A DNA stretch of 32,000 nt from Methanothermobacter thermautotrophicus str. Delta H (GTDB lineage Archaea > Methanobacteriota > Methanobacteria > Methanobacteriales > Methanothermobacteraceae): the NCBI RefSeq assembly GCF_000008645.1, contig NC_000916.1:1050001-1082000 (forward strand). Reading direction: 5' to 3'. Of this stretch, positions 3,945 to 32,000 are shown in pieces. Both the position numbers and the translations under genes were made by a program. The notes below the pieces were generated by a model that saw only the letters and a program-made list of their open reading frames with translations, ran no database searches and had not been told where the DNA came from. The stretch's first letter is position 1; each line of letters begins with the position of its first letter.

Positions 3945-4006
3945 GCTTTCACCACAACCTCCAGTTTTATCGTGTTTGTCATAATTATCTGCTAACAAGT
4001 ATTACA

Positions 4007-4014
4007 TATATAAA
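4007..4014 (-). promoter_or_regulatory. Archaeal TATA box (TTTATATA on the minus strand) for the unknown/fdhA-like/fdhB-like/mvhD-like operon
   Basis: Plus-strand 'tatataaa' is the reverse complement of the methanogen box A consensus TTTATATA. It lies about 63 nt upstream of ATG 3944. Confidence 0.45.
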
Positions 4015-4402
4015 TGTTCCTAAAATTTAAAAGGCATGTGAACCATTGTAATTACATGAAAATCACAATAAAATCCAATTTTAATCATTTAACCGTTTTA
4101 AATCCACAATAATCTAAAATTATGGCCATGCGGCCCTAATAGATCCAGAGTTAATATTCTGGCAGGAAATTATAATTCATAATAGATGATTATTTTTTAA
4201 TATTTAACGTGGTTTGTACTCTGATCTCTAAGAACAACCCGCAACACGCCATTACAGAGTTAAGGGCAGCCTTCCAGTTAGGATCACTGGATTGAAGCAG
4301 CTCAGCCACAGATCCGTGATATTAATATCTTAATAATTATGATTATTTTCATATAATATTATATGGATAATGGATGGTAAAGGCTTCCCAAAGGAGGATA
4401 AA

Positions 4403-4453
4403 ATGAAAACATTGCTTAAATTGACTTACCCTGAAATTGCCACAGGTGAATAA
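4403..4453 (+). CDS. Candidate 16-codon micro-ORF (MKTLLKLTYPEIATGE)
   Basis: AAGGAGGA (4391-4398) lies 4 nt before the ATG. TATA-like ATATAATATTATAT (4351-4364) is about 27 nt upstream of the Shine-Dalgarno site. A T6 run (4468-4473) follows the stop. It is too short for statistical support. Confidence 0.25.
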   Translation: MKTLLKLTYPEIATGE

Positions 4454-4498
4454 ATTCTCCTTATAAGTTTTTTGATTTGAAAATTATCAAAAAATATA

Positions 4499-4506
4499 TT
4501 TATATT
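4499..4506 (+). promoter_or_regulatory. hmd promoter TATA box (TTTATATT)
   Basis: It matches the box A consensus 63 nt upstream of the hmd ATG. A GGAGTGAT Shine-Dalgarno site is at 4557-4564. Confidence 0.5.
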
Positions 4507-4568
4507 GGAAACCGATTAATCTGTACTACTAATAATATAAGTAGTATTACAGAAATGGAGTGATAGAT

Positions 4569-5603
4569 ATGAAACTTGCAATACTAGGTGCAGGATGTTA
4601 CAGGACCCATGCGGCCAGTGGAATAACAAACTTTTCCAGGGCCTGCGAGGTCGCTGAAATGGTTGGAAAACCAGAGATAGCCATGACCCATTCCACAATA
4701 ACAATGGGTGCAGAGCTAAAAGAACTTGCAGGTGTGGACGAAGTCGTTGTTGCAGACCCTGTATTCGACAACCAGTTCACAGTTATAGACGACTTCGCCT
4801 ACGAGGACGTCATAGAAGCCCACAAGGAGGACCCTGAAAAGATAATGCCACAGATCAGGGAAAAGGTCAACGAAGTCGCAAAGGAACTTCCAAAACCACC
4901 AGAAGGTGCAATACACTTTACACACCCTGAAGACCTTGGATTTGAGATAACAACCGATGACAGGGAAGCTGTTGCAGACGCCGACTTCATAATGACCTGG
5001 TTCCCAAAGGGAGACATGCAGCCAGGCATAATAGACAAGTTCATAGATGACATAAAACCAGGCGCCATCGTCACCCACGCCTGCACAATTCCAACCACCA
5101 AGTTCTACAAGATATTCGAAGAAAAACACGGCGACCTTGTAACAAAACCTGAAACACTCAACGTAACATCCTACCACCCAGGTGCCGTACCCGAAATGAA
5201 GGGCCAGGTCTACATTGCAGAGGGTTACGCCTCAGAGGAAGCAATAAACACCCTCTTCGAACTCGGACAGAAAGCAAGAGGTAACGCATACAGGTTACCA
5301 GCCGAACTCCTCGGACCAGTATGTGACATGTGCTCAGCCCTCACAGCAATAACCTACGCAGGTATACTATCCTACAGGGACTCAGTCACACAGGTACTCG
5401 GCGCGCCCGCAGGTTTCGCACAGATGATGGCCAAGGAGTCACTTGAACAGATAACAGCCCTTATGGAAAAGGTTGGAATAGACAAGATGGAAGAGCACCT
5501 CGACCCCGGTGCACTTCTGGGTACAGCTGACTCCATGAACTTCGGAGCATCAGCAGACATACTCCCAACCGTATTTGAAATCCTCGAGAAGAGGAAAAAA
5601 TAA
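4569..5603 (+). CDS. hmd: H2-forming methylenetetrahydromethanopterin dehydrogenase ([Fe]-hydrogenase)
   Basis: MKLAILGAGCYRTHAASGITNFSRA...THACTIPT...GQVYIAEGYASEE is the recognised Hmd sequence, with the FeGP-binding Cys in the HACTIPT motif. The track start at GTG 4560 is rejected in favour of ATG 4569, which has a properly spaced Shine-Dalgarno site. Confidence 0.97.
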   Translation: MKLAILGAGCYRTHAASGITNFSRACEVAEMVGKPEIAMTHSTITMGAELKELAGVDEVVVADPVFDNQFTVIDDFAYEDVIEAHKEDPEKIMPQIREKVNEVAKELPKPPEGAIHFTHPEDLGFEITTDDREAVADADFIMTWFPKGDMQPGIIDKFIDDIKPGAIVTHACTIPTTKFYKIFEEKHGDLVTKPETLNVTSYHPGAVPEMKGQVYIAEGYASEEAINTLFELGQKARGNAYRLPAELLGPVCDMCSALTAITYAGILSYRDSVTQVLGAPAGFAQMMAKESLEQITALMEKVGIDKMEEHLDPGALLGTADSMNFGASADILPTVFEILEKRKK

Positions 5604-7224: not shown

Positions 7225-7302
7225 AGGCCCCATCAAAGAACAGCAGAGAAAAACAGGTCCATAAACAGTATGAACCATATAACAGGAAACAGCTGATCAA
7301 AA

Positions 7303-8079
7303 ATGAAACCCCCTGAAACAGGCATAACAGAAACCGTGAAGACCTTCTTCTCATCCCTCACAGTTGGTGACATAGTAAGACGGATATCCCATCTCAAATC
7401 CTCTGCAGTCACTGGGTGGCTCGATGATGCCAGATTTGAACCTGAAAATGCCCTGATTATAGGCTCATACTTCACAGGCGCCGCGATCTCAGGTGCCCTT
7501 GACTGCAGGGTTACAGTTGCAGATATAAACCCCCAGACACGTTTCCTCCTTAGGGGAGATGTGGACTTCCGGGAGGGTATTCATGGACTGAATGGTGACT
7601 GGGACCTCATAGTTGATACAACCGGCATTGGTGGTGTAACCCCTGAGGAGCTCTCAGGTTTCACTGCAGGGGCCTTCATCGTTGAGGACCCGACCTCTGA
7701 TGGCAGTGATGAAACAATAATGGGCTACAACAGTACCGCTGAACGGCTTGAGGCGGTTGAAGCAGATCTGAAGGCGTCCCTCCGCACCCTTGGACTCGGT
7801 GCCAAGACCTCGGGCACAATGACCCTCACAGTCGAGGTTCTTCGAAGGTCAATGGCCGATGCCCTTGAATGTAGAGGAGTACTGTATGCAACCGCAACCC
7901 TTAGGTTCTTTGAGAGGATCCTCTTCAGAGAGAGGGACCCTCAGGGCTTCCTCAGGGCCCTTGAATCACCTGCCCTTACTGTATCGTCCCTGGGGGATAT
8001 CAGCTGCGATGAGATACTTGAGGGGAACCTAGGAATGATAAGGTCGGAGGTTACAGAAGAGGACGGTGATAACAATTAG
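7303..8079 (+). CDS. hcgC: HcgC, SAM-dependent pyridinol methyltransferase of FeGP cofactor biosynthesis
   Basis: Synteny supports the call, along with a Rossmann-like glycine-rich stretch (IIGSYFTGAAISGALD). The product is 258 aa. Confidence 0.8.
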   Translation: MKPPETGITETVKTFFSSLTVGDIVRRISHLKSSAVTGWLDDARFEPENALIIGSYFTGAAISGALDCRVTVADINPQTRFLLRGDVDFREGIHGLNGDWDLIVDTTGIGGVTPEELSGFTAGAFIVEDPTSDGSDETIMGYNSTAERLEAVEADLKASLRTLGLGAKTSGTMTLTVEVLRRSMADALECRGVLYATATLRFFERILFRERDPQGFLRALESPALTVSSLGDISCDEILEGNLGMIRSEVTEEDGDNN

Positions 8080-27515: not shown

Positions 27516-28828
27516 GTCGTGTAACTGTTGTAACACCTGAACACTACAATTACGGTTCAATGCTCATTGCAGGAGCCCTTAGGGACCTTGGACACAGGGT
27601 TGAAATCAGAAAGGGATTTGATGGTGTTAAATCAGAGATCGTATTCATAAGCCTTCAGTCCACCATCCACCTCCTGAGATACAGGGATATTATTAATAAA
27701 ATGGGCGGCTTCAGGGTGGTGGGGGGTCCGGTCAGCATAGACCCTGAGATGGTATTCAGGTACCTCGATGTGGACCTCGTGGTGATGGGTGAGGGTGAGG
27801 ACAAGGTCGGTCCTGTGATGGAGCTTGCAGCTGGAAATTGTAAACCAGAGGATGTCCCCGGTGCAGCCTTCAGATCACCGGAGGGAATTGTGGTCAGTGA
27901 ATCATCACCCTGCCCCATGGAGAGGCCCCTACCCCTTGTTCCAGGTGATATCTCCAGGGAGGATATACGGGGTGCCAGTGTCTACATTGAAACCCACAGG
28001 GGATGTCCCGGTAACTGCACCTTCTGTCAGGTCCCTGAATTCTTTGGCAGAAATGTGAGGAGCAGGCCCCTAAAGGACATAATCATGGAGGTCCGGGAAC
28101 TGAAGTCATCGGGTGCCAGGAGGTTCGCCATAAGTGGAGGTACAGGCACCCTCTATGGCAGCAGCAAATTCAGGGGTATTGATGAGGAAGCCTTCAGGGA
28201 TCTTCTGAGGTGCATAAGTGAGGTCACCGGCAGTAGAAACCTCACCGTGCCGGATATAAGGGTCGATATGGTCAGCCCAGAGATTCTTGATGCCATATCA
28301 GAGTACACGAATGGATGGGTCTTCTATGGTATAGAATCCGGGAGCAGGAGAATGCTCAGGAAGATGAAGAAGGGCATAACCCCTGATCAGGTTGTTGAGG
28401 CCGTTGAACTTGCAAGGGAGTACAACTTAAAAGTTGCAGGCTCCTTCATCGTCGGTTACCCTGGTGAGGACGATGATGACTACCAGGAGACCCTTGAACT
28501 TGCAGATGAACTCATGCTGGATGACTACTTCGTGAGCATAGCCGAGCCACTGCCCGGTACTGAACTCGGTGAGGAGGTCATGGAACTCCCTGAGGATGAA
28601 AACCCGGTATTCATGAAGTCCAGTAACAGGCGATTTGATAGTCTGGCAGAGGAGAGGGCCTTCAATTTACTCCTGGAATCCTATGTATTCCGAAGTGTGC
28701 CGGTCCCCATGACGTCCAGGCTTTTAAAGTCAATAACTGAGGAGGTTCGTCAGCAGCAGGAGCATATAAGAACCGTTACCGGATGCTCAAGGGAAAGCTG
28801 TGATGGATTCGGAGGTTTATCACTCTGA
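27512..28828 (+). CDS. Class B (cobalamin-binding domain) radical SAM enzyme; candidate McrA glutamine C-methyltransferase
   Basis: The N-terminal Rossmann-like B12-binding domain (VTVVTPEHYNYGSMLIAGALRDLGHRV...VVGGP) is followed by the radical SAM motif CPGNCTFC. A 4-nt ATGA overlap with mmp10 implies co-translation. The functional call is an inference from context. Confidence 0.8.
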   Translation: MSRVTVVTPEHYNYGSMLIAGALRDLGHRVEIRKGFDGVKSEIVFISLQSTIHLLRYRDIINKMGGFRVVGGPVSIDPEMVFRYLDVDLVVMGEGEDKVGPVMELAAGNCKPEDVPGAAFRSPEGIVVSESSPCPMERPLPLVPGDISREDIRGASVYIETHRGCPGNCTFCQVPEFFGRNVRSRPLKDIIMEVRELKSSGARRFAISGGTGTLYGSSKFRGIDEEAFRDLLRCISEVTGSRNLTVPDIRVDMVSPEILDAISEYTNGWVFYGIESGSRRMLRKMKKGITPDQVVEAVELAREYNLKVAGSFIVGYPGEDDDDYQETLELADELMLDDYFVSIAEPLPGTELGEEVMELPEDENPVFMKSSNRRFDSLAEERAFNLLLESYVFRSVPVPMTSRLLKSITEEVRQQQEHIRTVTGCSRESCDGFGGLSL

Positions 28829-30043
28829 AAATTTCATGGATGCATTTTTAATGACCTCCTCAAGGGATGATCCCTCTGGAGGTACTTTTCCAAGAAGATA
28901 ATCCGAAAAAAGAAGTTCTGGACCCTCTGATAATTTTTCGATCACCAGAACGTCAATATTCTCATCTTTCAGGAGCTCAGCAGCTCGAATCCCCCTCTTT
29001 GTTCTAAGTGATTTCCCGGAATTTTCAATTATCCTGTAATCGAGTATCTCACCCCTCCTGGTTCTTGCAATAAGGAAGGAGTCTGCCCTTCCAAAGTGGG
29101 TGCTGATTCTGGATTCCATTCCATGGTTATCTGCAAGCGGCACCGCAACCACAACCTCCTCCCTTTTAACTGTCTCCGGCTGTACCGTGAGGTGGTCAAT
29201 GGATGGGAGAACCTCCTTAACCCGGGAGTTTATCTGAGAAATGATCCCCTCTATCTTATCCACAGGCAGGCCCCTTTCAAGTTCAATATGCAGCTCGCCA
29301 AAGAGGTAGGGTCCAGATCTTCTTATTCTGATATCATGAACCCCCTCAACACCTGGGACCGATAAGACCGTCTTCTTTATGACTTCAATGGAATCACGGT
29401 CAATACATGCATCAAGGAGGGTCAGAACATCATATTTTGCAAGCCTGATCCCAATATAAATTATCACCACAGATATTATCACTCCTGCGATTCCCTGAAA
29501 GCCATGAAGCCCCATGTACTCCCCGAGGATCCCTAGGAAGACAAGAATGGAGGATATGACATCCACGTAGCTGTGCTTTCCATCGTTAAGGAGGGCTGTT
29601 GAACCGATTCTCCTCCCAACCCTAACCTTATAAAATGCAATGGCATAGGAGACTCCAATCGATATCAAACTCACTGCAAGGCTTGCAGTGGCCATGGAAA
29701 CCTCTGAAGCTGGATTTAAAATGTAAATAATGGAGTCCCATGTTATCTCCAGACCGGTTATTATGATCAGCACTGAAACGAGGAGGGAAACAAGGGTTTC
29801 AATTCTATGGTATCCATAGGGAAATAGTTCATCAGGTTTTCTCTGTGAGAGCTTAAGACCAATGAATACGGCGGCTGATGAGAATACATCCGCAAAGGAA
29901 TGTATAGCATCTGCTATCAGGGCTATATTTCCAGAGAGATAACCGGTAAACCCCTTTATCACCACTAAAATCATGTTGATGATTACCGAATACTTGGAAG
30001 CGGTTTCTCCCTCCTTCAGTGGTGCTCCATCATTCTCTTTCAT
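28820..30043 (-). CDS. Cation diffusion facilitator (CDF) transporter fused to a C-terminal NifX/NifB-like (dinitrogenase FeMo-cofactor-binding family) domain
   Basis: CDF hallmarks are present: ADAIHSFADV in TM2, YGYHRIE, six predicted TM helices, and a cytoplasmic domain VHDIRIRRSGPYLFGELHIEL. An extra segment of about 110 aa follows, VVVAVPLADNHGMESRISTHFGRADSFLIA...IDVLVIEKLSEGP, carrying the HFGRA signature of the NifX/NafY/NifB-C family. Confidence 0.8.
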   Translation of the reverse strand: MKENDGAPLKEGETASKYSVIINMILVVIKGFTGYLSGNIALIADAIHSFADVFSSAAVFIGLKLSQRKPDELFPYGYHRIETLVSLLVSVLIIITGLEITWDSIIYILNPASEVSMATASLAVSLISIGVSYAIAFYKVRVGRRIGSTALLNDGKHSYVDVISSILVFLGILGEYMGLHGFQGIAGVIISVVIIYIGIRLAKYDVLTLLDACIDRDSIEVIKKTVLSVPGVEGVHDIRIRRSGPYLFGELHIELERGLPVDKIEGIISQINSRVKEVLPSIDHLTVQPETVKREEVVVAVPLADNHGMESRISTHFGRADSFLIARTRRGEILDYRIIENSGKSLRTKRGIRAAELLKDENIDVLVIEKLSEGPELLFSDYLLGKVPPEGSSLEEVIKNASMKFSE

Positions 30044-30050
30044 GTCAATT

Positions 30051-30146
30051 CAGCCCCATTTAGCATTAGCTCATCAACCATTAACTTGATCTGGGAGGTT
30101 GAGTTTAGTCAGCCAGCCCCATATTTAGCATTAGCTCATCAACCAT
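30051..30146 (-). repeat. Direct duplication of the 3' end of the MinD-type gene in the spacer before the CDF gene
   Basis: cagccccatttagcattagctcatcaaccat (30051-30081) matches cagccccatatttagcattagctcatcaaccat (30114-30146). The two are identical except for a 2-nt indel. Confidence 0.9.
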
Positions 30147-31001
30147 CCCCCTAAATAGCTTTTTAAGGTGGGGATTGAAGATCACTGCGGGTAATCCGTT
30201 GACCAGAGCATCTGTAAATGCCAAATCATAGGGTATTATTCCCATGATGGGTATCTCATTTCTATCTGCAAGATCTTCTATCTCAGCTGCGATCTCATGA
30301 TTTAAATCATATTTATTGATTATTATGGAGTGTGGGATCCCAAAATGACTTACAAGTTCTATTGCACGTTTAGAGTCATTTATAGCTGCCTTTGTAGGTT
30401 CCGTTACTATAATGGCCCGGTCACATCCCTTAACTGATGATACCACAGGGCAGCCAATACCGGCTGCTGAATCCAGGAGAGCCAGATCCATGCCCTCCGC
30501 TCTTCCAATTTCAGAGACCTTTCTCCTCAGAGAATCCACAATCTTTCCTGAGCCTCTCTCACCAATTTTAAGATGGCCGGATACCACAGGGAAACCGTAA
30601 TCAGACTTAAAATAGCAAATCTTTCCTGTATCCACTTCTTTGATGTCTATCGCTCTATCAGGGCATATATATGCACATGCTCCGCATCCTTCACAGAGAA
30701 ATTCATTTATTTCAGGTTTTGAGTTCTTTGCACTCCATTTTATTGCATTGAATCTGCATACCCTCACACATTTCTTTCTTGATTTGCATTTTTCAGCCAT
30801 TAAGAATGCCTTTTCAGAGGCCCTTATGGTTTCGCACTCCACATCCCCTGAAGATCCCATGATGAGTGCCAGATTGGGTGTGTCCACATCGCAGTCTCCA
30901 AGGATTATTTCTGCTCTATCAGCAAGTAGAACAGCCATTGAAGCCACTATGCTGCTCTTTCCAGCCCCACCCTTTCCTGAGAGGATGCATACCTCCTTCA
31001 C
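30105..31001 (-). CDS. MinD/ParA-superfamily P-loop ATPase with an inserted ferredoxin-like domain (second of a pair)
   Basis: It has the deviant Walker A SGKGGAGKSS. The insert carries one full CEGCGACAYICP motif and a degenerate CKSRKKCVRVC motif. I prefer GTG 31001 as start (GAGGTG Shine-Dalgarno site 5 nt upstream, 1 nt after the upstream stop). The track start at TTG 31022 is the alternative. Confidence 0.8.
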   Translation of the reverse strand: MKEVCILSGKGGAGKSSIVASMAVLLADRAEIILGDCDVDTPNLALIMGSSGDVECETIRASEKAFLMAEKCKSRKKCVRVCRFNAIKWSAKNSKPEINEFLCEGCGACAYICPDRAIDIKEVDTGKICYFKSDYGFPVVSGHLKIGERGSGKIVDSLRRKVSEIGRAEGMDLALLDSAAGIGCPVVSSVKGCDRAIIVTEPTKAAINDSKRAIELVSHFGIPHSIIINKYDLNHEIAAEIEDLADRNEIPIMGIIPYDLAFTDALVNGLPAVIFNPHLKKLFRGMVDELMLNMGLAD

Positions 31002-31002
31002 A

Positions 31003-31878
31003 TTAACACCTCTGCATCTCAAGTAACCCTGCGACAGTATCTATTCCTGGAACATTAAGGGGTTCACCCCCTGAATAGGCCTCCATTAAATCCTTAGAAT
31101 ATTCTATTTCAGCCACAATGGGCCTCCCTGTTTCTCTGGAAACCTCGAGTACCGGGTCTGCGTTACCGATTCCTGCACGGTTGAGGATAATACTTGAAGT
31201 TACATCCAGCCTCTCAAGTAGCTCAAGTATCAGCTTCAGGTCATGACTCCCAAAGGGTGTTGGCTCTGTAACAGCAAAGGCAAGGTTAGCATCCATGATG
31301 GCATGTATAACATTACAGTGGACTCCTGCTGCTGTGTCAATGATTATGAAGTCCATATCATGGTTCTCTCTCGCATTTTTCATGAGTGAGTCCACCAATC
31401 GTGCGCTTGATTCTATATTCACAGTTGTTTCCCCGGAAAGTAACCTGAAATTTCTTCTAATTTTCTCATCATAATTTTCAGGGAGTTTGCCATCATAAAG
31501 GAATCCTGCGACCATATCCTCATCCTTTATTGCATTATTTCTGCATGAAAGACTGCATGTCCCACAGCCACTGCATCTATCCCTGACAAGAATTGGGTGC
31601 CTGCCCTCCACAAATACGATTGCATTTTTCCTGCACACCTCTGAACATTTACCACACATGGAGCAAGCTGAAAAATCAAAGGAGGGTATCTGAAGAGTTA
31701 CTTCATCTGTTTTTCTTCTCTGCACGGACAGGATTATGTGGTCATCTGGACACTCAACATCTGTGTCCACCAGGAGCACCCTGAATTTATCGGCGAGGGC
31801 TATGGCGAGAGAACATGCTATGGTTGATTTTCCTGTTCCTCCCTTTCCCCCGGTTATTGCTACCATTAAGGGCTTCAT
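31003..31878 (-). CDS. MinD/ParA-superfamily P-loop ATPase with an inserted 2x[4Fe-4S] ferredoxin-like domain (first of a pair)
   Basis: It has the deviant Walker A GGKGGTGKST and two CxxCxxCxxxC motifs (CSMCGKCSEVC and CSGCGTCSLSC) inserted after the P-loop. Confidence 0.8.
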   Translation of the reverse strand: MKPLMVAITGGKGGTGKSTIACSLAIALADKFRVLLVDTDVECPDDHIILSVQRRKTDEVTLQIPSFDFSACSMCGKCSEVCRKNAIVFVEGRHPILVRDRCSGCGTCSLSCRNNAIKDEDMVAGFLYDGKLPENYDEKIRRNFRLLSGETTVNIESSARLVDSLMKNARENHDMDFIIIDTAAGVHCNVIHAIMDANLAFAVTEPTPFGSHDLKLILELLERLDVTSSIILNRAGIGNADPVLEVSRETGRPIVAEIEYSKDLMEAYSGGEPLNVPGIDTVAGLLEMQRC

Positions 31879-31908
31879 CGAAACACCGGCTCATCATGGA
31901 TTTAGTGT

Positions 31909-32000
31909 CTATCTTCTTCTCCTGCCACGGCCACTGCCTGGTGATCGTATCTCCTCAAGATTTCCCTCTGTGAAGAGCTTGAGATTCTCCTCAACTGATG
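31909..32000 (-). CDS. 3' end of an unidentified upstream gene with an Arg/Gly-rich tail
   Basis: My translation of the minus strand gives ...SVEENLKLFTEGNLEEIRSPGSGRGRRRR followed by TAG (31911..31909), 30 nt upstream of the first MinD-type start. Only 29 codons are visible. Confidence 0.3.
   Translation of the reverse strand, partial: SVEENLKLFTEGNLEEIRSPGSGRGRRRR

What the first reader, a model, noticed from the sequence alone, without database searches (positions are those of the whole stretch)
28820..32000. Unassigned metal-handling cluster: two MinD-type ATPases with ferredoxin inserts plus a CDF transporter fused to a NifX-like cofactor-binding domain
Three, probably four, tightly packed minus-strand genes form one apparent operon. 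After an upstream gene with a GSGRGRRRR tail come two paralogous deviant-Walker-A ATPases, each interrupted by Cys-rich ferredoxin-type motifs. The first has 2 x CxxCxxCxxxC. The second has one full and one degenerate motif. Last comes a six-TM cation-diffusion-facilitator protein with a C-terminal extension of about 110 aa carrying the HFGRA signature of the NifX/NafY/NifB-C family. MinD/ParA/NifH/CooC-like ATPases are established nucleotide-driven metallocentre insertases, and NifX-like domains bind complex Fe-S cofactor precursors. A membrane metal transporter covalently joined to such a domain, co-transcribed with a likely heterodimeric Fe-S ATPase pair, suggests a dedicated metal or metallocluster trafficking route. 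As far as I know, this pairing of MinD-ferredoxin and NifX-like proteins recurs in anaerobes without any assigned function, and I do not recall the CDF fusion being described. In this genome it sits beside the MCR modification genes, though that may be coincidence.
Basis: partly seen in the sequence, partly recalled or inferred. Interest (0 to 1): 0.7.

Follow-up and report, generated by a model that had tools for sequence, protein, structure and literature searches.

The report
Iron-sulfur handling operon with metal exporter
The window's end holds the last genes of a seven-gene operon, common in oxygen-avoiding microbes, that teams two iron-sulfur ATPases and small metal-cluster carriers with a membrane metal exporter carrying a fused carrier domain; the parts are known, but its job, probably managing iron sulfide in the cell, is unproven.

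Summary
Window 28820-32000 (minus strand, Methanothermobacter thermautotrophicus deltaH) encodes the 3' end of MTH1175 (NifX-like, PDB 1EO1), two paralogous MinD-type ATPases with ferredoxin inserts, and a YiiP-type CDF transporter fused to a NifX-like domain. All domains pass Pfam thresholds. The fusion is real: at least 124 clusters at 50% identity, and 293 species genomes spanning Methanobacteriales, DPANN, Bathyarchaeia, Asgard, CPR bacteria and others.

The operon runs beyond the window: DUF134 regulator, NifX-like, Mrp/NBP35, MTH1175, ATPase 1, ATPase 2, CDF-NifX. This is an archaeal version of the Desulfovibrio ORP (orange protein) gene set, so the pairing is not unassigned. The fusion was also noted in passing in Acidithiobacillus in 2007-08.

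What appears new is the linkage. Of 73 fusion loci outside Methanobacterium, 51% have a same-strand ferredoxin-ATPase within 6 kb and 58% a standalone NifX-like gene. ATPase order is fixed in 36 of 36 pairs. Only 1 of 51 ATPase-seeded loci has the fusion, so it is an add-on to the ORP-like core.

Neighbouring genes (DtxR, FeoAB, ZIP, SufBC, thioredoxin, cationic Gly/Arg-rich proteins) and M. voltae proteomics point to iron-sulfide homeostasis, with the transporter as a gated iron outlet. That mechanism is inferred. The position next to mcr looks lineage-specific.

The parts
31909..32000 (-). 3' end (last 30 codons plus stop) of MTH1175, a 124-aa NifX-like (IPR003731) protein with a cationic GSGRGRRRR tail. 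The gene continues beyond the window edge.
   Evidence: sequence. (full gene at L001 7761-8135). (124/124 residues match PDB 1EO1 at E 3e-75; ORP structure 2WFB at E 3.8e-11).
31003..31878 (-). ATPase 1 ('T1'), 291 aa. A MinD/ParA-type deviant Walker A ATPase (KGGTGKS) with an inserted 2x[4Fe-4S] ferredoxin domain. Orp3/Orp4-type.
   Evidence: invariant K12, G13, G14, G16, K17, eight ferredoxin Cys, D181, and C188 in GTHCPV; the ortholog is always the upstream member of the pair.
31543..31665 (-). Ferredoxin insert of ATPase 1, with two CxxCxxCxxxC motifs (C72-C82 and C102-C112).
   Evidence: (Fer4 E 6.6e-11).
30105..31022 (-). ATPase 2 ('T2'), 305 aa from the TTG start (298 aa from the start called on CP064324.1, window 31001). 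Paralog of ATPase 1, with GIGCPV at the position of GTHCPV.
   Evidence: (30% identity, E 8e-33).
30663..30788 (-). Ferredoxin insert of ATPase 2: a degenerate first motif Cx5Cx3C (C79-C89) and a full CxxCxxCxxxCP (C110-C120). Most T2 orthologs elsewhere keep two full motifs.
30044..30104 (-). 61-nt gap between ATPase 2 and the CDF gene. It has no TATA-like element. It contains a near-copy (starting at 30075) of the last ~26 nt of ATPase 2 (starting at 30140).
28820..30043 (-). CDF-NifX fusion gene, 407 aa. A YiiP-type divalent-cation/H+ antiporter with a cytoplasmic C-terminal NifX-like domain.
29414..29992 (-). Six-helix Cation_efflux membrane domain (aa 18-210). Transport site A is H48, D52 (TM2) and H157, D161 (TM5).
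   Evidence: (aligned to YiiP D45, D49, H153, D157). (conservation). (six long helices in the model).
29174..29401 (-). ZT_dimer cytoplasmic domain (aa 215-290), with conserved metal ligands H236, H252 and E290.
   Evidence: (MamM C-terminal domain matches with TM-score 0.84-0.86).
28844..29116 (-). Nitro_FeMo-Co / IPR003731 (NifX-like) domain (aa 310-400; fold begins at about aa 296). No cysteines. Invariant or nearly invariant: S311, H316, F317, N341, K349, G351, E373, G374, P375.
   Evidence: E 5.4e-11. (PDB 1O13, 1T3V, 1EO1).. (pLDDT 85-92).

Best explanation
What it is (shown): the three genes, plus the gene fragment at the window edge, are the distal half of a seven-gene operon. The order is DUF134 regulator, NifX-like (116 aa), Mrp/NBP35, NifX-like MTH1175, ferredoxin-MinD ATPase 1, ferredoxin-MinD ATPase 2, CDF-NifX. 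This is an archaeal form of the anaerobe-specific ORP (orange protein) gene set, with a membrane transporter added.

What it most likely does (inferred): it manages metal-sulfide species, most probably iron sulfide, in the cytoplasm of a sulfide-rich anaerobe.
- The IPR003731 (NifX-like) modules hold anionic metal-sulfur species. This has been shown for NifX/NafY, the orange protein, the MrpORP tail and IssA thioferrate.
- Mrp loads [4Fe-4S] clusters onto the ATPase pair, as shown for MrpORP acting on Orp3/Orp4.
- The two ATPases act as an obligate hetero-pair. They use ATP, and electrons from their ferredoxin inserts, to move or remodel the bound species.
- The CDF is a working divalent-cation/H+ exporter. 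Its fused NifX-like tail connects it to this carrier pool, either by sensing how loaded the pool is or by docking the soluble NifX-like proteins and the ATPases.
- The metal exported is most likely Fe2+, possibly Zn2+. Export would happen when the iron-sulfide pool is full, making the transporter an overflow valve that responds to iron that ordinary Fe2+ sensors cannot detect.

Confidence by layer: identity as an ORP-like module with a CDF-NifX accessory, about 0.85; an Fe-S or iron-sulfide homeostasis role, about 0.6; the overflow-valve mechanism itself, about 0.3.
For: Identity:
- Domain calls.
- Operon content on the full contig.
- The Mrp gene matches MrpORP model positions 1-244 at E 6e-95. 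A NifX-like gene starts 1 nt before its stop, so MrpORP is split into two genes here.
- MTH1175 is PDB 1EO1 and matches the ORP structure 2WFB at E 3.8e-11.
- The published description of Orp3/Orp4 fits: paralogous MinD-like proteins with two [4Fe-4S] motifs each.

The transporter looks functional:
- All four site-A ligands and the site-C ligands are conserved.
- YiiP/ZnT fold.

Coupling:
- Of 73 fusion loci outside Methanobacterium, 37 have at least one same-strand ferredoxin-MinD gene within 6 kb, 28 have two, 42 have a standalone NifX-like gene and 24 have DUF134. Binomial P is below 1e-35.
- A NifX-like gene is the immediate neighbour in 40 of 80 loci, often with overlapping stop and start codons.
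- The T1 then T2 order holds in 36 of 36 loci.
- One ORF carries two ATPase modules in tandem.
- Control loci that matched only the P-loop pattern: 0 of 21 have a CDF.

Iron-sulfide theme:
- A DtxR repressor gene follows the CDF-NifX gene (directly, or after one MBL-fold gene) in 5 Methanobacterium loci, and lies near the module in an Asgard locus and a metagenome locus. FeoAB is adjacent in two Methanobacteriaceae loci (L008, L086).
- Recurrent neighbours are ZIP, thioredoxin and SufBD with its ABC ATPase.
- Cationic Gly/Arg/aromatic-rich segments occur in MTH1175, in the DUF134 protein and in DUF5320 proteins (24 + 14 loci). This is the composition proposed to bind thioferrate in IssA.
- NCBIfam's best-scoring named transporters are the iron CDFs MamM and MamB, then MntE and FieF.
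- The A. ferrooxidans fusion lies behind a predicted Fur box.
- In M. voltae, Mvol_0689 and Mvol_0693 (IssA-like) and Mvol_0691 and Mvol_0692 (CbiA-family, listed as FeS-binding) rise 2.3- to 5-fold together with DtxR and FeoAB in pyrite-grown cells that accumulate thioferrate-like iron.
Against: - No experiment exists on this protein, or on any CDF-NifX fusion.
- The HD-HD transport site is typical of zinc CDFs, so iron is not established.
- The fused NifX-like domain has no cysteine and no cationic tail, so its ligand is unknown.
- About 31% of fusion loci (25 of 80) show none of the ORP-like genes nearby. Some of these are on short contigs, but in others the fusion can evidently work alone.
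- Only 1 of 51 ATPase-seeded loci has the fusion, so the core does not need it.
- The characterised ORP complex was linked to cell division and to a Mo-Cu cluster, not to iron export.
- Orthology of the two ATPases to DVU2103/DVU2104 and to Mvol_0691/Mvol_0692 rests on published descriptions and gene position. I did not compare the sequences.
- Co-transcription in this organism is inferred from gene spacing only.
Confidence: 0.5

Rival explanations
1. A stand-alone metal-efflux pump. The CDF-NifX is an ordinary Fe/Zn (or Co/Ni) detoxification exporter, and the NifX-like tail is only a self-contained regulatory or metal-buffering domain. It sits next to the ORP-like genes because they share regulation in a metal-homeostasis island, not because they work together physically.
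For: - 25 of 80 fusion loci have no ORP-like gene within 6 kb.
- The A. ferrooxidans fusion lies with ModA-like and RND genes behind a Fur box, with no ORP genes described.
- The transporter part has all the canonical CDF sites.
- DtxR follows it in Methanobacterium.
Against: - Same-strand linkage to the ATPase pair and NifX-like genes is seen in 51-58% of loci across phyla that share little other gene order.
- The neighbouring NifX-like gene often overlaps it by a few bases, which suggests translational coupling.
- The fused domain belongs to the same family as the soluble proteins of the module.
Confidence: 0.2
2. Handling of molybdenum, tungsten or copper thiometallates. As in the original orange protein, which binds a [S2MoS2CuS2MoS2]3- cluster, the NifX-like modules would bind Mo/W-Cu-sulfide species that form spontaneously in sulfidic cells. 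The CDF would export the associated divalent metal (Cu, Zn or Co).
For: - The orange protein (Orp8 homolog) carries a Mo-Cu-S cluster.
- MTH1175 matches the ORP structure 2WFB.
- The A. ferrooxidans authors suggested Mo or Fe efflux, next to a ModA-like gene.
- The recurrent radical-SAM neighbour has weak similarity to the tungsten-cofactor maturase and to MoaA.
Against: - No Mod, Tup or Wtp transporter genes and no molybdopterin genes appear among the recurrent neighbours. The recurrent ones are DtxR, FeoAB, ZIP, SufBD and thioredoxin.
- CDFs carry divalent cations, not oxyanions or thioanions (established knowledge of the family).
- The M. voltae homologs respond to the iron/sulfur source.
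Confidence: 0.12
3. An MCR maturation route. The NifX-like modules and the ATPase pair would deliver a complex cofactor to the methyl-coenzyme M reductase system encoded next door. The cofactor would be either the L-cluster-like [8Fe-9S-C] clusters of McrC/Mmp7, or F430 as suggested for ANME-2a. The CDF would supply or balance the metal.
For: - Mmp7 lies two genes upstream of DUF134. Mmp10, the MCR glutamine C-methyltransferase and mcrBDCGA follow the CDF gene. This layout is kept in Methanobacterium.
- The MCR activation complex contains three L-cluster-like clusters, NifB is implicated, and methanogen NifB lacks its own NifX domain. How these clusters are moved is described as an open question.
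- An ANME-2a network study tied a similar cluster to MCR.
Against: - The same module occurs in DPANN archaea, CPR bacteria, Zixibacteria, Actinomycetota and Asgard archaea, groups not known to have MCR.
- Mmp7 is adjacent only in Methanobacteriales loci.
- The McrC pull-down recovered Mmp7, Mmp17, Mmp3, A2 and DUF2098, with no MinD, Mrp or NifX-like protein.
- CDFs are exporters, which does not fit nickel supply.
- The ANME-2a proposal rests on gene neighbourhood alone.
Confidence: 0.06
4. A cell-division or positioning system. The MinD-like ATPases would position a complex at the membrane or cell pole, as first proposed for the ORP complex. The CDF-NifX would serve only as their membrane anchor.
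For: - The ATPases belong to the MinD/ParA family.
- ORP genes were described as putatively involved in cell division, and MrpORP localises to the pole.
Against: - Scores against the MinD models are far below their cut-offs (52-68 bits against 201-213).
- All eight ferredoxin cysteines are invariant in type-1 ATPases, and the neighbours are metal carriers, transporters and Fe-S assembly genes. Both point to metal chemistry.
- The module is induced by a change in iron/sulfur source in M. voltae.
- Most ATPase pairs have no CDF to serve as an anchor.
Confidence: 0.05

Closest known systems
[quoted passage not shown]
   Same: - Two paralogous MinD-like ATPases with two [4Fe-4S] motifs each.
- Several small IPR003731 (NifX-like) proteins.
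- An Mrp/NBP35 Fe-S carrier associated with an IPR003731 domain.
- Restricted to anaerobes.
- Here the Mrp gene matches the MrpORP model at E 6e-95, and MTH1175 matches the ORP structure 2WFB.
   Different: - One operon rather than two divergent ones.
- No sigma-54 or OrpR; a DUF134 regulator instead.
- MrpORP is split into two genes.
- ATPase 2 has a degenerate first ferredoxin motif.
- A CDF-NifX membrane transporter is added, which the ORP papers read here do not mention; the original 2011 paper could not be read.
- Direct sequence comparison with DVU2103/2104 was not possible.
Cdf1/CdfB (AFE1588) of Acidithiobacillus ferrooxidans, a CDF with a C-terminal MTH1175 signature (PMC1874648, PMC2631029)
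   Same: The same domain fusion of a CDF with an IPR003731 domain. It was proposed to export Fe or Mo, and it has a predicted Fur box.
   Different: It was noted only in passing and never characterised. It lies with ModA-like and RND genes in an aerobic acidophile, and no ATPase pair or ORP-like genes were described. I did not compare its sequence with the window protein.
YiiP/FieF, MamB/MamM and the ZnT transporters (cation diffusion facilitator family)
   Same: - Six-helix membrane domain plus a dimerising cytoplasmic domain.
- All four site-A ligands and most site-C ligands are present.
- Foldseek E 3e-15 to YiiP.
- Best NCBIfam scores are to MamM and MamB.
   Different: - Scores are below every equivalog cut-off (160 against 350 bits).
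- Site A is HD-HD rather than YiiP's DD-HD.
- Site B is lost.
- There is an extra ~110-aa NifX-like domain that no solved CDF has.
IssA of Pyrococcus furiosus, the thioferrate iron-sulfur storage protein (PMC5524996)
   Same: - An IPR003731 domain that binds an anionic iron-sulfide species.
- The IssA model was built on MTH1175.
- Cationic Gly/Arg/aromatic segments recur in this module: the MTH1175 tail, the DUF134 C-terminal half and DUF5320.
   Different: - The fused domain has no tail.
- The MTH1175 tail is only 9 residues, against 70 in IssA.
- Nanoparticle formation has not been shown here.
- IssA is not reported to occur with a CDF or with the ATPase pair.
NifX, NafY and the NifB C-terminal domain (carriers of nitrogenase cofactor and its precursors)
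   Same: Same Pfam family (PF02579). The histidine of the HFG motif is conserved in the fused domain.
   Different: No nif genes lie in the 21 kb around it. The module occurs in organisms with very small genomes, such as DPANN and CPR. Binding of NifB-co or FeMo-co has not been tested.
ANME-2a cluster C5S33_05750-05780 (PMC12622379)
   Same: A CDF, two 4Fe-4S proteins, a NifX-family protein and a P-loop NTPase listed together and linked to MCR by gene neighbourhood.
   Different: That paper interprets the NifX protein as an F430 shuttle and the CDF as a nickel importer, from network inference only. It does not report whether that CDF is fused to a NifX-like domain, and I did not check.

Membership tests
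Cation diffusion facilitator (CDF) family | Cation_efflux six-helix membrane domain | tested here: met
   Pfam E 9e-49. TIGR01297 at 268 bits against a cut-off of 82. Six long helices in the model. YiiP/ZnT fold.
Cation diffusion facilitator (CDF) family | Four-residue transport site A on TM2 and TM5 | tested here: met
   H48, D52, H157 and D161 align with YiiP D45, D49, H153 and D157. D52 and D161 are invariant and H48 and H157 are at least 90% conserved in 79 homologs.
Cation diffusion facilitator (CDF) family | Cytoplasmic dimerisation domain with metal ligands | tested here: met
   ZT_dimer E 6e-17. H236 and H252 align with YiiP H232 and H248, and E290 is invariant.
Cation diffusion facilitator (CDF) family | Metal/H+ antiport activity and metal specificity | not testable with these tools
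   Below every NCBIfam equivalog cut-off: MamM 160/350, FieF 119/420, ZitB 67/408.
NifX/NafY/NifB-C (Nitro_FeMo-Co, IPR003731) | Domain model match above the curated threshold | tested here: met
   43.1 bits against 26.3, aa 310-400. Ten distant fusions also pass. PDB hits 1O13, 1T3V and 1EO1.
NifX/NafY/NifB-C (Nitro_FeMo-Co, IPR003731) | Conserved histidine of the HFG motif | tested here: met
   H316 is invariant and F317 nearly invariant in 79 fusions. MTH1175 itself has F at that position. That this histidine binds cofactor in NafY is recalled from memory, not tested.
NifX/NafY/NifB-C (Nitro_FeMo-Co, IPR003731) | Nitrogenase gene context and binding of NifB-co or FeMo-co | tested here: not met
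   No nifHDKEN or nifB in the 21-kb locus. Cofactor binding cannot be tested here.
ORP (orange protein) complex | Two paralogous MinD-like ATPases, each with two [4Fe-4S] motifs | tested here: met
   ATPase 2 here has one degenerate motif, but most orthologs have two.
ORP (orange protein) complex | Small IPR003731 proteins encoded alongside | tested here: met
   Two standalone genes (116 and 124 aa) plus the fused domain.
ORP (orange protein) complex | MrpORP: Mrp/NBP35 fused to an IPR003731 domain | tested here: inconclusive
   The Mrp gene matches NF041136 positions 1-244 of 365 at E 6e-95, but scores 318.5 against a cut-off of 450. The IPR003731 part is a separate gene overlapping it by 1 nt.
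ORP (orange protein) complex | Sigma-54/OrpR control and two divergent operons | tested here: not met
   A single same-strand operon led by a DUF134 gene. Archaea have no sigma-54 (established knowledge).
ORP (orange protein) complex | Direct sequence orthology of the ATPases to DVU2103/DVU2104, and a physical complex | not tested
The match rests on the published description.
IssA (thioferrate storage) | IPR003731 domain followed by a long cationic Gly/aromatic-rich tail | tested here: not met
   The fused domain ends 7 residues after the fold. MTH1175 has only a 9-residue tail. Long tails and DUF5320 proteins of that composition do occur in related loci.
MinD (septum site determination) | Score above the MinD model cut-offs, and MinC/MinE-type partners | tested here: not met
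   52-68 bits against cut-offs of 201-213. No Min partners in the locus.

The most novel reading that the evidence does not exclude
In Methanobacteriales this module has been recruited as the missing delivery route for the nitrogenase-type [8Fe-9S-C] (L-cluster-like) clusters of the MCR activation complex. NifB, which lacks its own NifX domain in methanogens, would hand its product to the standalone and membrane-tethered NifX-like modules. The ferredoxin-ATPase pair would then insert it into McrC and Mmp7, whose genes flank the operon. A less bold version is already part of my best explanation: the whole ORP-like module is an ATP- and redox-driven machine that builds and dissolves thioferrate-like iron-sulfide stores. 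That would finally give the ORP complex a function; I put it at about 0.25.
Probability: 0.05. Interest if true: 0.9.

Novelty: new variant of a known kind. Interest (0 to 1): 0.5.

Why it matters
The function of the ORP complex has been unclear since it was described in 2011. How anaerobes store, buffer and dispose of iron when it is bound up with sulfide is also an open question in archaeal metal biology.

This analysis shows that a whole subfamily of metal exporters carries a carrier domain of the ORP/IssA type, and that it is genetically tied to the ORP-like core in many phyla, including the tiny genomes of DPANN and CPR organisms. That gives the system a membrane component and a transported substrate that can be measured, so an opaque soluble complex becomes something testable with metal quotas, transport assays and spectroscopy.

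M. thermautotrophicus deltaH would be a convenient organism for such work if the genetic tools I recall for it hold up (from memory, not checked here), and one component, MTH1175, already has a solved structure.

If the iron-sulfide overflow idea is right, it would also explain how cells regulate iron that classical Fe2+ sensors such as DtxR cannot see, a problem raised by the M. voltae pyrite work.

Tried and rejected
- **Assembly artefact.** Rejected. The same protein is on six contigs, the region is identical in a second assembly, and all of the 120 best homologs listed carry the three domains except two (P0012, a shorter 366-aa entry without the NifX hit; P0025, a 272-aa fragment that has all three).
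- **Fusion specific to Methanobacteriales.** Rejected.
- **Diverse alignment for the genome scan.** A 75-sequence fusion alignment was too diverse for the scan, so I used a 16-sequence subset.
- **Pfam on all 150 representatives.** I replaced it with my own HMM plus Pfam on ten of them.
- **Original ORP paper (Fievet 2011).** Not held in the library. I could not check what it said about gene-cluster distribution or about any CDF.
- **Locus-tag search.** MTH1171-1177 found nothing.
- **MCR link.** I looked for MinD, Mrp or NifX-like proteins in the McrC pull-down and in descriptions of component A3a. None were reported.
- **Radical-SAM neighbour as a NifB relative.** Rejected. It has only weak matches to the tungsten-cofactor maturase, MoaA and viperin.
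- **Palindrome upstream of DUF134 as a conserved operator.** Not found in eight Methanobacteriaceae loci.
- **Rfam scan of the window.** No hits.
- **Fold search for the NifX-like half.** The top 50 matches were all CDFs, so it added nothing beyond the sequence matches.
- **Hetero-complex modelling.** The structure tool takes single chains only, so I did not model the ATPase pair or its docking to the NifX-like domain.

Full report
**Observation.** The minus strand of window 28820-32000 carries three complete ORFs and the end of a fourth:
- 28820-30043, 407 aa.
- 30105-31022, 305 aa from a TTG start, or 298 aa from the start called elsewhere.
- 31003-31878, 291 aa.
- The last 30 codons of a gene ending GSGRGRRRR*.

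Pfam places Cation_efflux (aa 18-210, E 9e-49), ZT_dimer (215-290, E 6e-17) and Nitro_FeMo-Co (310-400, E 5e-11, above the gathering score) in the 407-aa protein. It places CbiA/ParA plus Fer4 in both ATPases. NCBIfam agrees. ATPase 1 has two CxxCxxCxxxC motifs. ATPase 2 has a degenerate Cx5Cx3C and one full motif. The two ATPases are paralogs, 30% identical with E 8e-33.

**Organism and full operon.** The 407-aa protein is encoded identically on CP064324.1, a 1.75-Mb chromosome, and on five short contigs. The window is 99.96% identical to that chromosome over 13.2 kb and identical throughout the finding region. The gene with the GSGRGRRRR tail is MTH1175: all 124 residues match PDB 1EO1. The organism is therefore M. 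thermautotrophicus deltaH or a near-identical strain.

On the full contig the operon has seven same-strand genes with gaps of -1 to 61 nt:
1. DUF134 (189 aa).
2. A NifX-like protein (116 aa).
3. An Mrp/NBP35 ATPase (272 aa).
4. MTH1175.
5. ATPase 1.
6. ATPase 2.
7. CDF-NifX.

Upstream lie an unannotated 176-aa ORF, Mmp7 and a metallophosphatase. Downstream, running in the opposite direction, lie the MCR glutamine C-methyltransferase and Mmp10, followed by mcrBDCGA and mtr.

**The fusion is real, old and widespread.** All of the 120 best homologs listed, down to 44% identity, carry the three domains except two (one shorter entry lacking the NifX hit and one fragment); the named ones are all Methanobacteriales. 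An exhaustive search of one representative per 50%-identity cluster found that 124 of the top 150 carry the fused domain. Ten distant representatives all pass Pfam's thresholds for all three domains. A scan of species-representative genomes with a single peptide pattern found 293 relatives. The best 80 come from Aenigmatarchaeota, Woesearchaeota, Nanoarchaeota and other DPANN lineages, Bathyarchaeia, Thermoplasmata, Thermoprotei, Asgard archaea, Parcubacteria, Saccharibacteria, Actinomycetota, Zixibacteria, Gammaproteobacteria and Methanobacterium.

**The transporter half looks functional.**
- Aligned to E. coli YiiP, H48, D52, H157 and D161 occupy transport site A (YiiP D45, D49, H153, D157).
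- H236 and H252 match site-C ligands H232 and H248, and E290 is invariant.
- Site B keeps only its aspartate.
- An AlphaFold model (mean pLDDT 81.6; NifX-like domain 85-92) has six long helices, and its best structural matches are YiiP and ZnT transporters.
- No solved structure covers both halves.
- The HD-HD quartet is typical of zinc CDFs. By score, the nearest named families are the iron transporters MamM and MamB, then MntE and FieF, all below their cut-offs. Metal specificity therefore cannot be read from the sequence.

**The NifX-like half.** It has no cysteine. It keeps the family's motifs: H316-F317-G, N341-P, K349-x-G351 and E373-G-P. It is only 27-32% identical to the two standalone paralogs of the operon, so it is an old paralog and not a recent copy.

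**What the cluster is.** The Mrp gene matches NCBIfam's MrpORP model over positions 1-244 of 365 at E 6e-95. The missing C-terminal NifX-like part is MTH1175, whose start overlaps the Mrp stop by one base. MTH1175 also matches the orange protein structure 2WFB.

The published ORP complex of D. vulgaris consists of Orp3 and Orp4 (paralogous MinD-like proteins with two [4Fe-4S] motifs each), the small proteins Orp5 and Orp8 (Orp8 being the orange-protein homolog), and MrpORP. MrpORP is an Fe-S carrier that can mature Orp proteins. The complex's function is still described only as putatively related to cell division. The window therefore holds an archaeal ORP-type gene set. I could not compare the ATPases directly with DVU2103/2104.

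**Prior mentions of the fusion.** Two A. ferrooxidans papers noted a CDF with a C-terminal MTH1175 signature behind a predicted Fur box, and suggested Mo or Fe efflux. A 2025 ANME-2a network study listed a CDF, two 4Fe-4S proteins, a NifX-family protein and a P-loop NTPase as MCR-linked, and proposed an F430 shuttle and nickel uptake from gene neighbourhood alone. I found no experimental work on any CDF-NifX protein.

**Linkage, seen from the fusion.** I called ORFs in the 80 scan loci and labelled them with profiles built from the deltaH proteins. Among the 73 loci outside Methanobacterium:

| Feature within 6 kb (ATPase and NifX-like genes counted on the same strand only) | Loci |
|---|---|
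| At least one ferredoxin-MinD gene | 37 |
| Two ferredoxin-MinD genes | 28 |
| Standalone NifX-like gene | 42 |
| DUF134 | 24 |
| Mrp | 7 |

These are lower bounds, because many contigs end close to the gene. Under a generous null of 3.3% per locus, 37 of 73 has P below 1e-35. A NifX-like gene is the immediate neighbour in 40 of 80 loci: 35 upstream, many with overlapping stop and start codons, and 12 downstream. In 21 control loci that matched only the P-loop pattern, none has a CDF and two have a NifX-like gene.

**The ATPase pair.** In all 36 loci with two ferredoxin-MinD genes, the upstream one is the ortholog of window ATPase 1 and the downstream one the ortholog of ATPase 2. Cognate scores are about twice the cross scores in nearly all loci; P is 1.5e-11 for the order alone. 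One metagenome ORF of 603 aa carries two complete modules in tandem. Type-1 proteins have an invariant deviant Walker A, eight ferredoxin cysteines, D181, and a lone Cys188 in GTHCPV. ATPase 2 has GIGCPV at that place. That cysteine is a candidate bridging ligand at the dimer interface, by analogy with NifH, CooC and Mrp; this is inference. No ferredoxin-insert MinD protein has a solved structure.

**Linkage, seen from the ATPases.** A metagenome scan seeded with type-1 ATPases gave 51 loci with a ferredoxin-MinD gene:

| Neighbour | All 51 loci | 9 loci with at least 3 kb on both sides |
|---|---|---|
| NifX-like gene | 31 | 9 |
| Mrp | 12 | 5 |
| DUF134 | 11 | 4 |
| CDF-NifX | 1 | 1 |

The ORP-like core is therefore the widespread unit. 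The CDF-NifX is an accessory found in certain lineages, and it depends on the core rather than the reverse.

**Which metal or ligand?** Context points to iron and sulfur.
- In five Methanobacterium loci a DtxR-type repressor gene follows the CDF-NifX gene, sometimes after an MBL-fold gene. DtxR also sits beside the module in an Asgard locus and, together with FeoB, in a metagenome locus. FeoAB is adjacent in two Methanobacteriaceae loci (L008, L086).
- Recurrent unlabelled neighbours are thioredoxin (8), MBL-fold (6), an ABC ATPase with SufBD (3-4), ZIP transporters (3-5), DUF5320, DUF123 and an unassigned radical-SAM protein.
- No Fur, ferritin or molybdate or tungstate transport genes recur.
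- DUF5320 proteins occur in 24 fusion-seeded and 14 ATPase-seeded loci. They consist of a Gly/Arg/Trp/Tyr-rich region followed by a coiled coil. The deltaH DUF134 protein has RFGRGGYGRGFGAGRG between Cys pairs, and MTH1175 ends in GSGRGRRRR. This composition is what the IssA study proposed for binding anionic thioferrate, and the IssA model was built on MTH1175.
- In M. voltae grown on pyrite, which accumulates thioferrate-like iron, several proteins rise together with DtxR (12x) and FeoB (15x): Mvol_0689 (2.3x) and Mvol_0693 (4.3x), both IssA-like, and Mvol_0691 (5.0x) and Mvol_0692 (2.6x), both annotated with the old CbiA-family name and listed as FeS-binding. The layout matches NifX, ATPase pair, NifX. 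That these are ferredoxin-MinD proteins is inferred from annotation and position.
- FmpB of D. magneticus is another protein with a NifX/NifB domain tied to iron biomineralisation.

**Most likely mechanism.** Shown: the parts, their conservation, and their linkage. Inferred: the IPR003731 modules hold anionic iron-sulfide species; Mrp supplies [4Fe-4S] clusters to the ATPases; the ATPase hetero-pair uses ATP and electrons to transfer or remodel the bound species; and the CDF exports a divalent metal, most likely Fe2+, under control of its fused tail. The tail would either sense how loaded the carrier pool is, or dock the soluble carriers and ATPases. This would act as an overflow valve for iron that is present as iron sulfide and so invisible to Fe2+ sensors, a problem raised explicitly in the M. 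voltae model. I rate the identity at about 0.85, the Fe-S homeostasis role at about 0.6 and the valve mechanism at about 0.3.

**The MCR neighbourhood.** Mmp7, Mmp10, the glutamine methyltransferase and mcr flank the operon in Methanothermobacter and Methanobacterium. The MCR activation complex contains L-cluster-like clusters whose delivery route is unknown, and methanogen NifB lacks a NifX domain. This makes an MCR role tempting. Against it:
- The same module occurs in lineages not known to have MCR.
- Mmp7 is adjacent only in Methanobacteriales.
- The McrC pull-down contained no MinD, Mrp or NifX-like protein.

I keep this as the low-probability novel case.

**Operon evidence in the window.** The 61-nt gap before the CDF gene has no TATA-like element. 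A TATA-like box and a perfect 20-bp palindrome lie just upstream of DUF134, outside the window. Gene spacing and the M. voltae co-expression support co-transcription, but I found no transcript data for this organism.

**Verdict.** The finding is an archaeal ORP-type operon whose last gene is a member of a large, uncharacterised subfamily of CDF exporters with a fused NifX-like domain. The components and the fusion have been seen before. The phylum-spanning linkage, the fixed ATPase order, the accessory status of the transporter and the recurring cationic Gly/Arg-rich proteins appear not to have been described, and they give a testable handle on the function of the ORP system.

Noticed in passing
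L001 5955-5996 (upstream of the DUF134 gene; would be about window 34050, outside the window): A TATA-like AAAAACTATATATAC is followed by a perfect 20-bp palindrome, TTTTGAATATATATTCAAAA, ending 2 nt before the ATG. It looks like an archaeal promoter with an operator. The palindrome was not found in eight Methanobacteriaceae loci.
   Followed up: partly
window 30050-30075 and 30114-30140: The 61-nt gap before the CDF gene contains a near-copy (GATGAGCTAATGCTAAAT-GGGGCTG) of the last ~26 nt of the ATPase 2 coding sequence. It may be a small local duplication.
   Followed up: partly
window about 28780: A 1-nt homopolymer difference (CC here, CCC in CP064324.1) changes the C-terminus of the MCR glutamine C-methyltransferase: 438 aa here, 430 aa there. 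In the window version its 3' end overlaps the CDF stop by 9 nt. This is probably a sequencing difference between two deltaH assemblies.
   Followed up: partly
L001 5998-6567 (DUF134 gene, outside the window): The DUF134 protein has an N-terminal helix-turn-helix. Its C-terminal half has two Cys-pair ribbons flanking RFGRGGYGRGFGAGRG. In CPR and metagenome loci (L021, L030, L066, L103) that C-terminal half exists as separate 75-88-aa proteins. It could be a regulator that senses Fe-S or thioferrate.
   Followed up: partly
L011 1605-1955, L023 1014-1355 and 36 other loci: DUF5320 proteins (about 110-130 aa; a Gly/Arg/Trp/Tyr-rich region plus a coiled coil) commonly sit just upstream of the NifX-like and CDF-NifX genes. 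Their composition matches the proposed thioferrate-binding tail of IssA. Some NifX-like neighbours (172-223 aa) carry similar long tails.
   Followed up: partly
L001 3356-3886; also L007 3876-4391 and L009 2321-2914: A conserved 171-197-aa ORF overlaps the start of the Mmp7 gene and has no Pfam or NCBIfam match. It is not detected as Mmp17. It may be an uncharacterised partner of Mmp7 in Methanobacteriales.
   Followed up: no
L007 8977-9978 and L089 about 7244-7750: In some Methanobacterium genomes the ATPase pair is replaced by a 63-aa ferredoxin plus a ~250-aa radical-SAM protein. The same unassigned radical-SAM family (weak similarity to the tungsten-cofactor maturase and MoaA; not NifB) sits beside ATPase pairs in 16 loci overall.
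   Followed up: partly
L102 8001-9812: A 603-aa ORF with two complete ferredoxin-MinD modules in tandem and four CxxCxxCxxxC motifs. It is flanked by DUF134, two NifX-like genes and Mrp.
   Followed up: partly
L084 3231-3884 and 10 other loci: A ~200-260-aa metallo-beta-lactamase-fold protein recurs directly after the CDF-NifX gene, in Methanobacterium and in DPANN loci alike. In Methanobacterium it lies between the CDF-NifX gene and DtxR.
   Followed up: no
window 4001-5000: GC content drops to 0.375, against about 0.50 elsewhere, and the AT skew changes sign. No Rfam family was found anywhere in the window.
   Followed up: no
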